Of a stretch of 25,537 nt of DNA, positions 1-6,000 are shown piece after piece (position 1 is the stretch's first letter; each line of letters opens with the position of its first letter). The position numbers were made by a program. Source of the DNA: a virus (lineage: Duplodnaviria > Heunggongvirae > Uroviricota > Caudoviricetes); IMG/VR virus record IMGVR_UViG_2698536454_000004; one strand, given 5' to 3'.

Positions 1-3000
1 GCCGACTGGCCGATAAACCGGGTCGGCGAACTGCTCCCCTGGCGCGTAGCACTGCCGACTGAATAACACATCCCCGTCAATACGGTTCTTGCTGCACGCT
101 TACCAAAAGTTGCCAGGCCATTTCCCATGTTGCTGAAGGCTGACGAGAACACCTGTTCTGCTGTTTCTGCCGTATTATCTGCATCCACGGTAAAATCCTG
201 AAATGCACGCAGGACTCCGTTTTTCCAGTTACCCTGCACAACTTCAAGCTGTTGCCAGTAACGGCGATTCTCATTCAGTTGTCGGTTCAGGCTCTCCGTC
301 AGCGCCTGCTCGGCCTTTCTGTAGTCATCCGTGTTATATGTCCCTTTCTGCTCACTATCCCGCCTCAACTGCTCCAGCTGTTGCTGGTATTTCTGGCGAA
401 GACTCAGTTGTACCTGATATCGCTGTCGCTGCTGATCACCCATACCCACCGTGGCGATATCCAGGTCATGTTGCTGACGCTGAGCGCGCTCTTCTTCAGC
501 CAGTTGACTGGTCAGCTGAATTGTTTTTTTCTTCAGCTCGTTGAGTGCCGTCTGTTTCTGAAGCTCCTGCTGTTTTACATCCAGCAGCGTCAGTGCCTGA
601 ATCAGTTCATCTTTACGGGCCAGCACACTCTTTTCATCTGCCGTCAGTTTTTTCCCGTCCAGGTCGCTGATGCGCTGCTGCAGAGCCAGAAGCTGTTTAT
701 GCGCTTCTGTCATCCTTTCCGTGGCAATGCCTGCTGACTGTCTGGCAGCAGCAATCTGTCCTTCCACCTGTGCCTGTTGCTGACTGTACTGCAGCAATAA
801 CCGGGTGGCCTCATCATTACGGGTTTCGCGTGTTTTTTTCTTACCGGATGCCAGGGCTTTCTCGTAACGTTCATTTTCACGTTGTATCGCCGCATCCCTG
901 ACAGCCTGATCGGCGTACTGCATGGCATTAATACGCGCAATTTCACGCTGATGTCGTGCAGCTTCCGTTTCATTCATCCGGTTCAGTGCAGCATTTTCAG
1001 CATTACGGCGTTTCTGTTGCTCCTGATAATTCCGCTCTGCCTGCTCTTTTGCATCCTGCAAATCCTTCTGGCGTTTTTTCTCCTGAAGATCGTTAAGACG
1101 CTGCTGATCGTATTCAACCTGAGAAGATGATGCCGTCCAGGGGAGTCTTTTCGCCCGCGACACTTTCTCCTGTAAAGCGGCAATCTGTTCATCCAGCGAG
1201 TCTTCACGACCAATATTCATGGCCGCATCCCAGAAACGACTCCATAAATCAGACAGATACTTCAGCGTACTGCCCAGCGCATTGAGGTTATTATCAATAT
1301 CCGCAGTACGCCGACCGGTTTCCTCTGCCAGTGCAGACATGGCTATCCGTGCAGCATCACTGGACCGCCCCTGATCCCCAAGGACGCGTATCTGCTCAAG
1401 CTGAGTGGCAGTAAGAAAATGCAGCTCATTGTCCAGAGCCTTCGCGGCATTTACAGGATCATCCTTCAGCCGCTTAAACTGATTTATGGTATCGCTGACC
1501 GACTGGCCAACCGATCGCTCCATCTGTGCGGCAGCTCTCGCCACCATACCGATATCGTTTCCACGAAATGCACCACTCCCCACCACCTGAGCCAGCGCAC
1601 CGGCTGCAGCATGTTGCGTAATACCATTCCCGGAAATAGCACGACTGAGCGTCCACAGCTGCCCGGCAGTGACTCCGGCATAATGCCCCGTCAGCGACAA
1701 CTGGCGGTTAAATTCTTCCCCCTCCTTCTGACCATCATACCAGGCTTTACCCAGACCATAGACGGCCGCGGCAATACCGCCAATAACCCCGCCCAGCATC
1801 ATGCCTTTCGGTGACATCAGTGTGTCTATCCATCCGGCACGGTTAGCCAGCGTTATCCCGGATCCCCTCAGCGCACCTAAATTGCCGCGGGCCAGTTCAC
1901 CTATCAGAACGCCTATCTCCTGGCGGGCCGCTGCACTTTTCAGACCCAGCGAATGCGTGGCTTTTCCTGCCTGCTCCATTTTGCGGATATACACTTCTGC
2001 AGCACTGCTTACCCCCAGCTGGGCAGCCTTAGCACGAAGCAACTCAGAAGAAGAAAGATTCTGGCGGGTTGCCTGCTCTTTAAGCTGACGGATAAACGCC
2101 ACTTTCTGTCGGGTAGCCTCTTCCTCAGCCTGCGTAAGAACACGGGTTTTCGCCGTAACCTCAGAAATCAGCGCCAGATAATCCTGCTGACCAATCCCGC
2201 CACTGTTTCTGGCCTGTCGGATCTGCTGCTGAATACGCTGTAATTCCTGCAGCCCCGCACTGGCCTGTTTCACACTGTCAATCTGACGATAAAACGCGGC
2301 AGCCGCTTTATCCTGAGCCTCCGCCAGAGCCATGGCCTGCGCCTGTTCCTCGCGCATTTTCTGGCTCAGTGCCTCCATACGCTGGCGGGTTTGCTCCACC
2401 TCGCGGGCCATGCGTTCATGAGCCTGTGCGCTCTTCTCCACCGTCTGCGCATGGACGGATGCGGCTGTTGCAGCCGAAGAAGCCGCCTGCATTGTCTGCC
2501 GGGCGGCCTGAGTCTGACGCTCCATAAAACGCTGCATACGGGCAGAAGACCGTTCTGCATCGCTGGCTGCACCATTCAGAAGGTTTTTGATACGGGGAAT
2601 TTCATTTTTAAACTCTGCCGCATCAATCCCCAAATCAATGACCAGGTTGGCTATCTGGTCCATAACGCACACCTCCGGAAATACCTTCCCCAAGATGCAT
2701 CAGTTCTTCGTCCGTTCGCTCCGGTATCCCGTTCTCTTCCGGTAAAAGGCTGAAATCAGCCACCGCAGCATCACTGCTACCGGACACCATTCTCACGATC
2801 AATGCCTTCAGCGAGGCAAACTGCGCATCCATCCACACATCACTGAAGCTCTGCATCCGGAAATAATCGCCCCACTCACCAAGCTCAGTGGCCGACATTT
2901 CCGACAGCATCCGCCGCCAGTCTGCCCGCCGGAACTCCCGGGCAAGCCGCATGACAAACTGCATTTCCCGCGTCAGGACTTTTCCGGCGTCAGCACCTCA

Positions 3001-6000
3001 TGCTCCAAATCCCCGGCATTCTCAATGACTCCCATACCGCTCAGCGACAGAACCATCTCCGCCCCCGCTCCCAGGGCATCATACGACCATGTTGTAATAA
3101 CGGATGCGCAAAGCGTCTCAACATCCTGAGACTGTTCCGCATTCCACAGTGAGCGGGAAACCAGCCAGGCATTGATATCCATCCCCATCCGCAGAAAAGC
3201 AATCTGTCGTTCAGCCTCCGGCAGTTCTCCCTCTTCGGCATCAAACTTTGCCGTTCGCTGCTGAACAAACGCCAGATATTCAATTCTCTGCAGCCCGGAC
3301 AGCTCACTGAGCACCACGGACTGCTTTTCATAATTAAACGTGCCCTGTTTCAGAAACATCATGTTCTCCACCTGCAAAAAAGCCCCGGATAACCGGGGCA
3401 AATGATGAGTATCGTCCTGTTAACCTGCGGCGCTGACAGCCACCGCAGCCACTGCCACAAAATCGCCGTCAGAAGTCATGCCCACAATGCTGACACTGCC
3501 CTGCTTCACGCCTTTCACCGTGGCCACAAGCCCGTTCAGGGTCACCGTGGCAGTCTGTGGATCTGTCGAATGCACACTGATCGCTTTGTCACTGGCTCCG
3601 TCAGGTTTTACTGTAAAGGTCAGCGTGGTGGTTGCTCCCACTTTTACACTGGCAGATGCCGGTGCCACCGTCAGCCCGGTAACGCTCACTGTTTCAGTGC
3701 CTTCCTCTGCCAGATACGGACGCCCCACACCGCTGATTTTCACTGTGCGGGTCATCACGTCTTTTGAGGCAATGGTTTTACCCAGTGAGCTCAGCCAGCC
3801 ACGGAAAACATCAACAGTGCCGTTGGGATATTTGATACGAAACGCGCAGACTTCACCGGAGTCGAACAACTGAACCAGTTTTTTCTGCCCGCTGTCACCC
3901 GGACGCCAGGCCAGCGTCGCCGAAGTATCACCGACGGATTTCTGCCCCTGGGTTGTCGTTTTCCAGTCTGCATCTTCATCATCGAGATAAGTGTCATCTT
4001 CTGCATCAGCGGTCATTTCGCCAGGTTGCAGATCCTTCACCATCGCAAGACGCAGCCAGTCAGTGTCCGATAAAGGGTTCGCAAACGCATCGCCCTTGCC
4101 GGTGTACATCCAGAACGTCGTTCCCGCACCTTTCGTTTTTGCCAGTGGATTTGGTGTGGTCATTGCCACCTCCTTTAATTCGTGTACGTGATCTGGTACG
4201 TGATTTCCGCCATCGCCCAGGTGGCCATCTCATTATCACGTTGATAGTTAAAACCGAGAGGGATCAGGGTGTCGATGAGTCCGGAAAGTGCCGGTATATC
4301 ATTCAGAGCCGGGAAAATGGTGCTCTCCATCCACATATCCAGCTCTGAATCCGGTGCCTGTGCCCGGATGAAGACAGCAATATGCAGAACAGCCTGCCAG
4401 TCATCTTCATCCGTCATTTTTCCGGTGTACTGAGCATCACTCAGCCACACCGCCACGGCAGGCAGTTCCTGCGCATCAATAAATGCCGGAAGCCCGTCAA
4501 AAAACGTGGCGCTGTCTCCACACTGTTCCCGAAGGCGTGCCAGTACGGCCTGGCGGATTTGTGTATGTCGGTTCATCGGGTCAGCCATAACCTCAGTTGT
4601 TGTTTCAGTGCATACCCCAGCTGTTTCGGCATTTCCGCAGCAATAATGCGGTCGCGGGCATCTTCAAATGCCTGTGTCAGCGGTCCGGACAGCGGGACTT
4701 TCACCACATCAATGGGGTAACGATTTTTGCCATCAATACGCCGCATCACATGCCAGCGACCATTCGCCAGTTGCTGAATAAACGCATCCCGGAAAAGATA
4801 TTTACCCACCTTCAGCACACTGCCACGGTACTGCAGTTTTCCACCACGCCGGGCCAGTCTGACCCGGGCTGTCCCCAGCTTAATAGCGGGCAGATTGCCC
4901 CGGTTAACGCGGATCCTGGCCGTCATTTTTCCTGACGGACTGGCTTTAAACACCCGGACACGCTGACGTACCAGTTTCAGGGGGATCCCTTTCACCTGGT
5001 TATCTCCCGCAACGGTATTCCCGGCAACCTGCCGGGTGGCGACCGAGACCGCTTTCTGTGCCACACGGTTTATCGCCCATGCGCTGGCCTGTGGCACCAT
5101 ACGGGTATCAAGGCTGTTCAGATTACGGATGGCATTCTCAAGCCCCTTCATCCCACACCTCTTTACTCAATAAAGATCATTGGCTTATCGTTAAAACGTT
5201 CATGCCGTGTGACCGTCCATTGTTGTCCGTCATAAACAACGCGATCCCCGCGCCGTGGGCGGTATCCCGAAGAAAACACCACCAGAGAGACCGCAGGTCC
5301 GGACAGAGCATTCAGCTCTGCCAGTGTTTCTCCCGGGATCACAGTCATATCGACATCATTAATCGAGGCTGTCTTTCCCATCTTTCTGACCGTGATAGCA
5401 TCCATACGCGCTGCCAGCCGGGAAAAGGGATCAGACATTGAGTTTTACCGGCACTTCTTCTGCACTGGTTCCGGCATCTGCCCAGACAACCCCGACCAGC
5501 GGATCAGAGCCGCTGTTAGTCAGCTGAACTTTTCCGGACTTCAGATAAACCTTCTTACCCGTTTTCATGTCATCCGTTTTCAGCTTAGGCAGCATAAACA
5601 CACCTTCGGTCATGCCGTCGCCTGTTTCACCCTGTGGAATATCGGTCAGCGCCACCGCAAAAACATCGCCCACCTGCACCAGATCTCCGCTGCTGATGGC
5701 TGCACTGGCAACAATCGCCACCGTTTTTCCTTCTTCTACAAAATTCTTTGCCATAACTGTCTCCGCACAGCCCCGTTCAGGGGCTGATTTCAGGTACAAA
5801 AAAAGCCCTTACGGGCCATCAGAGTTGTTGTCTGCGACGTTTACGCCGTACATTTCACCAGACCGCGGTGATCAACTGGCGCGACACCGGCGTCAATACG
5901 CACTTTCGTTGTCACGCCATCCACACTGAAGCCCTCCATCTGATCAATATATGGCGTATCCACACCGTTGAGATAAGCCACTTCAATCGTATCGGAGCCT

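What the first reader, a model, noticed from the sequence alone, without database searches (positions are those of the whole stretch)
2635..3401. Candidate -1 programmed frameshift producing a G-T tail chaperone fusion
The G-like ORF ends at 2973..2975, and the -1 frame is open from 2997 through 2635, overlapping the last G codons and the tape measure start. This is the conserved G/GT layout of long-tailed phages. The overlap contains CCGGAAAAG (zero frame CCG GAA AAG), which is not a canonical X XXY YYZ heptamer but places a Lys AAG codon after an A-run, similar to the lambda GGGAAAG slip site.
Basis: partly seen in the sequence, partly recalled or inferred. Interest (0 to 1): 0.35.

Follow-up and report, generated by a model that had tools for sequence, protein, structure and literature searches.

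The report
Lambda-type G-T tail chaperone frameshift
This is the well-known lambda-type tail-assembly gene pair, in which a few ribosomes slip back one base near the end of gene G to make a G-T fusion protein; it is ordinary, except that the slip site differs from lambda's by one base and public records annotate T as a separate gene.

Summary
On the minus strand, G (3362..2973) lies between the major tail gene V and the tape measure gene H. The -1 frame is open from 2997 to 2635 and encodes a lambda gpT homologue. The window is 97-99.8% identical to the lambdoid coliphages Ayreon, cdtI and mEp460. This G/T allele occurs in 1847 of 5426 complete E. coli genomes.

The only plausible slip site in the 8-codon overlap is G_GAA_AAG (2985..2979). 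It sits at exactly the codon of lambda's G_GGA_AAG. In 24 loci from nine enterobacterial genera plus lambda, an NNA_AAR lysine codon lies exactly 12 codons before the T motif LARE and 20 before DWR. Flanking G sequence diverges freely.

T-frame residues upstream of ATG 2964 are conserved. Six relatives have no start codon there at all, so independent initiation of T is not the general route.

I found no conserved downstream RNA structure, and no significant upstream Shine-Dalgarno-like stimulator in the window.

The site belongs to the known A_AAG tetranucleotide (hexanucleotide NNA_AAG) class of bacterial -1 shift sites. Verdict: an already known mechanism, not experimentally shown for this allele. 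Its value is mainly in correcting annotation.

The parts
2973..3362 (-). Gene G, the tail assembly chaperone (129 aa, 14.4 kDa). It starts at ATG 3362 (or ATG 3359) and stops at TGA 2975..2973.
   Evidence: Translation. Pfam Phage_TAC_2 7.4e-40 and phrog_42 1.9e-51. 33% identical to lambda gpG. Annotated as gpG in RefSeq.
2979..2985 (-). Proposed -1 slip site G_GAA_AAG. tRNA-Lys moves from AAG (2981..2979) to AAA (2982..2980), and tRNA-Glu moves from GAA to GGA.
   Evidence: It is the only NNA_AAR site in the overlap. It occupies the same codon as lambda G_GGA_AAG. It is invariant in 80 of 80 viral contigs although the 27 nt upstream show 6 haplotypes. An NNA_AAR site at the same position is conserved in all 24 loci.
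2973..2997 (-). The G/T frame overlap: seven sense codons plus the G stop. This is the only stretch where a -1 shift can join G to T.
2635..2997 (-). The T reading frame (-1 relative to G). 114 of its codons are used after the shift. Public records annotate it as a separate CDS starting at ATG 2964.
   Evidence: Pfam Phage_tail_T 5.1e-15 and phrog_39 8e-43. 38% identical to lambda T. Annotations.
2635..3362 (-). Predicted GT fusion, complement join(3362..2979, 2979..2635). It is 242 aa and 27.2 kDa, with junction ...HEVLTPEK-VLTREMQF...
   Evidence: The join translates without a stop. phrog_32165 matches both halves.
1..2663 (-). Tape measure gene H. It starts at ATG 2663, overlaps the end of T by 29 nt, and is cut off by the window start.
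   Evidence: Pfam TMP_2, TMP_4 and Tape_meas_lam_C. Annotations.
3420..4163 (-). Major tail tube gene V, immediately upstream of G.
   Evidence: Pfam Phage_TTP_12 6e-67 plus Big_2. Annotation.
3373..3399 (-). Terminator-like hairpin plus T-run in the V-G spacer.
   Evidence: Annotated as a terminator in the Ayreon and mEp460 records.

Best explanation
This is the lambda-type G/GT tail assembly chaperone pair of a cdtI/mEp460/Ayreon-like lambdoid prophage. Most ribosomes translate G (129 aa) and stop at TGA 2975..2973. A small fraction slip one base backwards on G_GAA_AAG (2985..2979). The single E. coli tRNA-Lys (mnm5s2UUU) leaves AAG and re-pairs cognately with AAA. The tRNA-Glu on GAA can re-pair with GGA through two Watson-Crick pairs and a central G.U pair. 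Translation then continues in the T frame to 2635, giving a 242-aa GT fusion. By analogy with lambda, the G domains of G and GT coat the tape measure protein H, and the T domain recruits the tube protein V. A low GT:G ratio (about 1:30 in lambda) is needed for tails of correct length, and neither protein ends up in the virion. What is shown here: gene order, homology of both halves, the position and conservation of the site, and the absence of a conserved alternative start. What is inferred: that the shift occurs, its rate (expected to be a few percent), which ribosomal sites are involved, and the function.
For: Gene order is V-G-T-H, with a Pfam or PHROG hit for each gene. The junction aligns exactly with lambda's, and the slip Lys is 12 codons before LARE in lambda and in the window. 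All 24 loci carry NNA_AAR at that exact position. They come from Escherichia, Salmonella, Citrobacter, Klebsiella, Kluyvera, Ewingella, Morganella, Proteus, Providencia and Pantoea, plus lambda. The sites are G_GAA_AAG in 14 loci, G_GTA_AAG in 4, A_GAA_AAG in 2, G_GCA_AAA in 2, G_GGA_AAG in 1 and G_GGA_AAA in 1. The G stop follows 0, 1 or 5 codons later. In the DNA alignment, the GAAAAG core of the site (GGAAAG in lambda) is an island of near-invariance in an otherwise divergent G 3' end. The T-frame motif K-[VIA]-x-x-R-E-x-x-F upstream of ATG 2964 is conserved. Gifsy-2, Ewingella, two Morganella loci, Proteus hauseri and Providencia heimbachae have no ATG, GTG or TTG in that stretch. The slip Lys is AAG in 20 of 24 loci, although AAG is only 29% of Lys codons in the window's genes. 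A_AAG is the most shift-prone tetramer in E. coli (PMC4066793). NNA_AAG sites are used naturally, for example G_CGA_AAG in IS1222 (PMC5009743). The Gifsy-1 and Gifsy-2 records already annotate their T homologues as made by translational frameshifting, and they carry the same CCGGAAAAGTCCTGA.
Against: There is no protein or reporter evidence for this allele or for any G_GAA_AAG site. In reporter constructs, A_AAG without a stimulator was barely above background (about 0.15%) and reached 5.6% only with the IS3 pseudoknot (PMC4066793). Yet I found no conserved 3' structure (z-score -1.09; 4 invariant pairs and no covariation). The upstream GAGGTG is matched or beaten by 17% of control positions within G. 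An ATG at 2964 lies 8 nt after the G stop, so termination-reinitiation could yield some free T in this phage. The Ayreon, mEp460, cdtI and Tritos records and RefSeq all annotate T as a separate CDS.
Confidence: 0.88

Rival explanations
1. T is made as a free 109-aa protein from ATG 2964, either by a weak ribosome binding site or by termination-reinitiation after the G stop 8 nt upstream. No frameshift is needed.
For: ATG 2964 exists close to the G stop. It is the annotated T start in mEp460, Tritos, vB_EcoS-569R4 and RefSeq. Reading the sequence directly, a GGGA lies 2 nt upstream of the ATG.
Against: The T-frame residues between the slip Lys and this ATG (V-L-T-R-E) belong to a motif conserved across all 24 loci. 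Six relatives have no start codon anywhere before LARE. The GGGA spacing of 2 nt is poor for initiation (my reading of the sequence). From my own knowledge of Levin et al. 1993, lambda T is known only as the GT fusion; the Atkins review describes the T domain as acting together with the G domain (PMC5009743). This route would not explain the invariant NNA_AAR site or the bias toward AAG.
Confidence: 0.07
2. The frames are joined by RNA polymerase slippage on the A run, which would add or drop a base in the mRNA, rather than by ribosome slippage.
For: The site contains a run of four A.
Against: From my own knowledge of the field, known transcriptional slippage sites need much longer homopolymer runs, typically 7 or more. 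Relatives with G_GTA_AAG, G_GCA_AAA or G_GGA_AAG have only three or four A.
Confidence: 0.02
3. The overlap is a fortuitous leftover or a decayed gene, and the T domain is not expressed in this prophage.
For: The motif alone has about a 9% chance expectation in the overlap. Many E. coli prophages are defective (general knowledge).
Against: Both frames are intact and under clear protein-level conservation. The same sequence is carried by phages that have been isolated and deposited as phage genomes, such as Ayreon, mEp460, cdtI and Tritos. The site is invariant in 80 of 80 contigs.
Confidence: 0.03

Closest known systems
Bacteriophage lambda G / G-T programmed -1 frameshift (Levin, Hendrix and Casjens 1993; Xu, Hendrix and Duda 2004, 2013, 2014, as cited in PMC5009743)
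   Same: Same gene order V-G-T-H. Both halves are homologous (33% and 38% identity). The slip codon is at the identical aligned position, the A-site Lys AAG is the same, and the G stop follows shortly after the site. T overlaps the start of H. No evident RNA stimulator was found.
   Different: The P-site codon is GAA instead of GGA, so the heptamer G_GAA_AAG is not X_XXY_YYZ. The G stop follows after 1 codon rather than 5. T is 114 aa and lacks the C-terminal duplication seen in lambda T. A terminator-like hairpin precedes G.
Gifsy-1, Gifsy-2 and Fels-1 prophages of Salmonella
   Same: About 67-70% DNA identity, with the identical CCGGAAAAG(T/C)CCTGA site. The Gifsy-1 and Gifsy-2 records already describe T as produced by translational frameshifting.
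   Different: The G C-terminal tails upstream of the site are unrelated in sequence. Gifsy-2 has no start codon in the T frame before LARE, whereas the window has ATG 2964.
A_AAG tetranucleotide / NNA_AAG hexanucleotide -1 shift sites in bacteria (IS1222 G_CGA_AAG, Bacillus subtilis cdd A_CGA_AAG; Licznar et al. 2003 and Sharma et al. 2014)
   Same: Slippage rests on tRNA-Lys moving from AAG to AAA, with imperfect P-site re-pairing. The expected level is low (PMC5009743; PMC4066793).
   Different: IS1222 uses a downstream structure as stimulator (my own knowledge; the papers read here do not state it). None is detectable in the window. The P-site codon here is GAA, whose efficiency I could not look up because the Licznar paper is not held.
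PRFect 'twofour' slippery motif class (PMC10885494)
   Same: By my reading of the motif naming, GGAAAA fits the two-plus-four pattern that the authors list among motifs found in annotated phage frameshift overlaps lacking XXXYYYZ. They also invoke G.U re-pairing of tRNA-Glu on GGA.
   Different: That class is a statistical motif drawn mostly from actinobacteriophage annotations. It is not an experimental demonstration.

Membership tests
Lambda-type G/GT tail assembly chaperone with programmed -1 frameshift | Two overlapping ORFs located between the major tail tube gene and the tape measure gene, with the second in the -1 frame relative to the first. | tested here: met
   V 4163..3420, G 3362..2973, T frame 2997..2635, H from 2663.
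Lambda-type G/GT tail assembly chaperone with programmed -1 frameshift | The upstream ORF is homologous to lambda gpG. | tested here: met
   Pfam PF06894 Phage_TAC_2 7.4e-40. BLASTP against lambda G gives 2e-15.
Lambda-type G/GT tail assembly chaperone with programmed -1 frameshift | The downstream frame is homologous to lambda gpT. | tested here: met
   Pfam PF06223 Phage_tail_T 5.1e-15 and phrog_39 8e-43. BLASTP against lambda T gives 1e-25.
Lambda-type G/GT tail assembly chaperone with programmed -1 frameshift | A slippery sequence inside the overlap, in the correct frame and conserved among relatives. | tested here: met
   G_GAA_AAG at 2985..2979. NNA_AAR occupies the homologous codon in 24 of 24 loci, and the site is invariant in 80 of 80 contigs.
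Lambda-type G/GT tail assembly chaperone with programmed -1 frameshift | The slippery sequence is a canonical X_XXY_YYZ heptamer (G_GGA_AAG in lambda). | tested here: not met
   The site is G_GAA_AAG, with P-site codon GAA rather than GGA. This is a property of lambda's own site, not a requirement of the family. Relatives use six different heptamers.
Lambda-type G/GT tail assembly chaperone with programmed -1 frameshift | A GT fusion protein is produced at a low ratio to G and is required for tail assembly. | not testable with these tools
   This needs a western blot or mass spectrometry of induced lysogens, or a reporter assay.
Stimulated bacterial -1 PRF of the dnaX or IS3 type | A Shine-Dalgarno-like element about 10 nt upstream of the shift site and/or a stable downstream hairpin or pseudoknot. 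| tested here: not met
   The downstream fold has z-score -1.09, and the consensus structure has 4 invariant pairs with no covariation. The upstream GAGGTG gives -6.9 kcal/mol and is matched or beaten by 17% of control positions. The Pantoea relatives do have a strong upstream GGGGAGGA.

The most novel reading that the evidence does not exclude
G_GAA_AAG is a non-X_XXY_YYZ site that relies on A_AAG slippage plus a central G.U re-pair of tRNA-Glu. It may be the predominant G-T shift site of enterobacterial lambda-type prophages, working at the required few-percent level with no RNA stimulator. That would contrast with reporter data in which unstimulated A_AAG is near background. If so, the P-site GAA context or the nearby G stop codon supplies stimulation that current bacterial -1 PRF rules do not capture. 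It would also mean that heptamer-based scans and standard pipelines systematically miss the fusion protein in about a third of E. coli genomes.
Probability: 0.35. Interest if true: 0.3.

Novelty: already known. Interest (0 to 1): 0.15.

Why it matters
The main value is in annotation. This exact G/T allele is present in 1847 of 5426 complete E. coli genomes. In the RefSeq record examined, and in five of the six related phage records whose annotation tables I read, it is annotated as two independent genes, with T starting at an internal ATG. The 242-aa GT fusion, the likely functional form of T, is therefore absent from those records. A smaller point concerns mechanism. The family shows that only the A_AAR lysine codon and its position are conserved, while the P-site codon varies (GAA, GGA, GCA, GTA). 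This is a natural dataset on how little P-site re-pairing a low-level bacterial -1 frameshift needs.

Tried and rejected
1. I looked for a downstream stimulatory RNA structure. The 99 nt 3' of the site fold no better than shuffles (z-score -1.09). RNAalifold on 11 diverse loci gives only 4 invariant pairs and no covariation. Rejected.

2. I tested for an upstream Shine-Dalgarno-like stimulator. GAGGTG lies 9 nt 5' of the site (-6.9 kcal/mol with the anti-SD), but 17% of control positions within G match or beat it. The acidic G tail also creates GAG and GGA strings by itself. It is not supported for the window. It is real-looking only in the Pantoea relatives.

3. Independent initiation at ATG 2964 is rejected as the general mechanism. 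It is not excluded as a minor extra route in this phage.

4. The viral-contig scan with the T protein returned 80 loci that were all 100% identical in T. They were useful only to show that the site is invariant. Diversity came from the genome-contig scan with an alignment.

5. Literature. I could not retrieve Licznar et al. 2003, which measured NNA_AAG efficiencies including GAA_AAG, and I did not find Xu et al. 2004. Searches for GGAAAAG plus frameshift, and for lambdoid, frameshift and tail assembly, gave nothing specific. I therefore cannot say whether G_GAA_AAG was explicitly tabulated before.

6. Transcriptional slippage was considered and rejected, because the A run is too short.
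Full report
**1. What is in the sequence**

All genes in this part of the window run on the minus strand.
- An ORF from ATG 3362 (or ATG 3359) to TGA 2975..2973 encodes a 129-aa protein.
- One base back (-1 frame) there is a stop at 3000..2998. That frame is then open from 2997 to the stop at 2637..2635.
- The two frames therefore overlap for seven sense codons plus the stop: GTG CTG ACG CCG GAA AAG TCC TGA.
- The downstream frame overlaps the next gene (ATG 2663) by 29 nt.

The stated end, 3401, is the mechanical TTG start from the ORF list. It lies inside a terminator-like hairpin, so it is not the likely start.

**2. Identity of the genes**

| Gene | Window position | Evidence |
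|---|---|---|
| G | 3362..2973 | Pfam Phage_TAC_2 ("lambda tail assembly chaperone G"), 7e-40; phrog_42 |
| T (-1 frame) | 2997..2635 | Pfam Phage_tail_T, 5e-15; phrog_39, 8e-43 |
| V (upstream) | 4163..3420 | Lambda-type tube protein with a Big_2 domain |
| U, Z (further upstream) | 4588..4175, 5151..4573 | Pfam Phage_tail_U, Minor_tail_Z |
| H (downstream) | 2663..1 | Tape measure protein domains |

- PHROG 32165 is a 290-position profile that matches the first protein in its first half and the second in its second half.
- The region is 99.8% identical to phage Ayreon and 97-98% identical to cdtI, mEp460 and Tritos.
- The wider window is a typical lambdoid prophage running from the cI region through lysis, terminase and head genes to H.
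- A 401-nt stretch around the site is present at 95% identity or more in nearly all of the 1847 of 5426 complete E. coli genomes that match it.

**3. Where the shift must occur**

- Only one site in the overlap allows re-pairing after a -1 move: G_GAA_AAG at 2985..2979.
- Shifting there gives ...HEVLTPEK-VLTREMQFVMRLAREF... The join complement(3362..2979, 2979..2635) translates cleanly to a 242-aa, 27.2-kDa protein.
- In lambda the site is G_GGA_AAG and the product reads ...SAGK-VFDGELSFALKLAREM....
- The two junctions align residue for residue. In both phages the slip Lys is 12 codons before LARE.
- The window's site is therefore the positional homologue of lambda's and differs by one base (GGA to GAA).

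**4. Comparative test**

I collected 23 further loci:
- lambda;
- Gifsy-1, Gifsy-2 and Fels-1;
- 19 loci from a scan of one genome per species with an alignment of diverse T proteins.

They span Escherichia, Salmonella, Citrobacter, Klebsiella, Kluyvera, Ewingella, Morganella, Proteus, Providencia and Pantoea. T identity falls as low as 43% in the genome-scan loci and to 38% for lambda T.

In all 24 loci, a zero-frame NNA_AAR lysine codon lies exactly 12 codons before LARE/LAHE/LSHE and 20 codons before DWR. The G stop follows 0, 1 or 5 codons later.

| Heptamer | Loci |
|---|---|
| G_GAA_AAG | 14 |
| G_GTA_AAG | 4 |
| A_GAA_AAG | 2 |
| G_GCA_AAA | 2 |
| G_GGA_AAG (lambda) | 1 |
| G_GGA_AAA | 1 |

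- In the nucleotide alignment, the GAAAAG core of the site (GGAAAG in lambda) stands out as an island of near-invariance. The G sequence just upstream is essentially unalignable.
- Among 80 near-identical viral contigs, the 16-nt site is invariant while the 27 nt upstream show six haplotypes.
- The slip Lys is AAG in 20 of 24 loci, although AAG makes up only 29% of Lys codons in the window's genes. This fits selection for A_AAG, the most shift-prone tetramer in E. coli (PMC4066793).

**5. Independent initiation**

Public records start T at ATG 2964 (mEp460, Tritos, vB_EcoS-569R4 and RefSeq) or further downstream (Ayreon). None of these uses a slippage join. Two observations argue against this as the general route.
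- The T-frame residues upstream of that ATG belong to a conserved motif, K-[VIA]-x-x-R-E-x-x-F.
- Six loci have no ATG, GTG or TTG anywhere between the upstream stop and LARE: Gifsy-2, Ewingella, two Morganella loci, Proteus hauseri and Providencia heimbachae.

The Gifsy-1 and Gifsy-2 records already state that T is made by translational frameshifting. They carry the same CCGGAAAAGTCCTGA.

Some free T from ATG 2964, for example by reinitiation 8 nt after the G stop, cannot be excluded for this phage.

**6. Mechanism**

- The conserved element is A_AAR in the A site.
- The P-site codon varies (GAA, GGA, GTA, GCA), and so does the base before it (G, or A in Morganella). Perfect P-site re-pairing is therefore not required.
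- This places the site in the A_AAG tetranucleotide / NNA_AAG hexanucleotide class, which has been studied in E. coli and is used naturally, for example G_CGA_AAG in IS1222 (PMC5009743).
- For G_GAA, tRNA-Glu can re-pair with GGA through a central G.U pair. The PRFect authors make the same point, and by my reading GGAAAA fits their "twofour" motif class (PMC10885494).
- I found no stimulator in the window. The 3' region folds no better than shuffles (z-score -1.09). There is no conserved or covarying structure across 11 loci. The upstream GAGGTG is unremarkable against control positions.

This leaves one open point. Unstimulated A_AAG was near background in reporter constructs (about 0.15%) and reached 5.6% only with a pseudoknot. 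Lambda needs roughly a 1:30 ratio of GT to G. The GAA context or the adjacent stop may help, but that is inference.

**7. Verdict**

This is a correct call of an already known, widely conserved recoding event, in a phage family whose Salmonella relatives are already annotated that way. The specifics have modest interest: a one-base variant of the lambda site, its dominance in my (query-biased) sample, and systematic mis-annotation. Nothing here is surprising to a specialist. The shift itself remains inferred for this allele.

Noticed in passing
window 3373..3399 (minus strand); also L093, L105, L106 and possibly L087, upstream of their G starts: A 7-bp all-GC hairpin followed by a T run (GCCCCGGTTATCCGGGGC TTTTTT) sits in the 57-nt spacer between V and G. 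The Ayreon and mEp460 records annotate it as a terminator. Similar hairpin-plus-T-run elements occur in the V-G spacer of the Ewingella and Providencia relatives. They are absent in lambda, Proteus and Morganella. It might lower G/GT/H expression relative to V, or mark a stable 3' end for V mRNA.
   Followed up: partly
L101-L104 (Pantoea and an Enterobacterales MAG), about 10 nt upstream of their G_GTA_AAG site: A strong Shine-Dalgarno-like GGGGAGGA (-11 kcal/mol with the anti-SD) beats every control position within G. Its spacing is that of the dnaX upstream frameshift stimulator. The window has no comparable element.
   Followed up: partly
window 5841..7799 (minus strand): A single 652-aa ORF combines a ClpP-type protease domain (residues 23-168) with a capsid protein domain (residues 357-649), and no separate major capsid gene is present. 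It resembles the tripartite protease-scaffold-capsid gene described for Gifsy-2; that comparison rests on my own knowledge, not on a search done here.
   Followed up: partly
window 2635..3362; NZ_CP025913.1 and 1846 other E. coli genomes: The G/T allele occurs in 34% of complete E. coli genomes. In the RefSeq record examined (NZ_CP025913.1), PGAP annotates 'phage tail assembly chaperone G' and 'phage tail assembly protein T' as separate CDS, with T starting at the internal ATG. The GT fusion is therefore not annotated there.
   Followed up: yes
window 2744..2761 (minus strand, inside T): The mEp460 record annotates a second 'rho-independent terminator' inside the T coding region (GGCTGATTTCAGCC TTTT). 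The terminator scan of the window did not report it, and it looks weak.
   Followed up: no
L092, L093, L094-L099, L105, L106: In the Kluyvera, Ewingella, Morganella, Proteus and Providencia relatives, the G stop codon immediately follows the slip Lys (AAG TAG, AAG TAA or AAA TAG). That arrangement could favour P-site slippage while the ribosome waits for a release factor (my inference). The window has one sense codon (TCC) in between.
   Followed up: no
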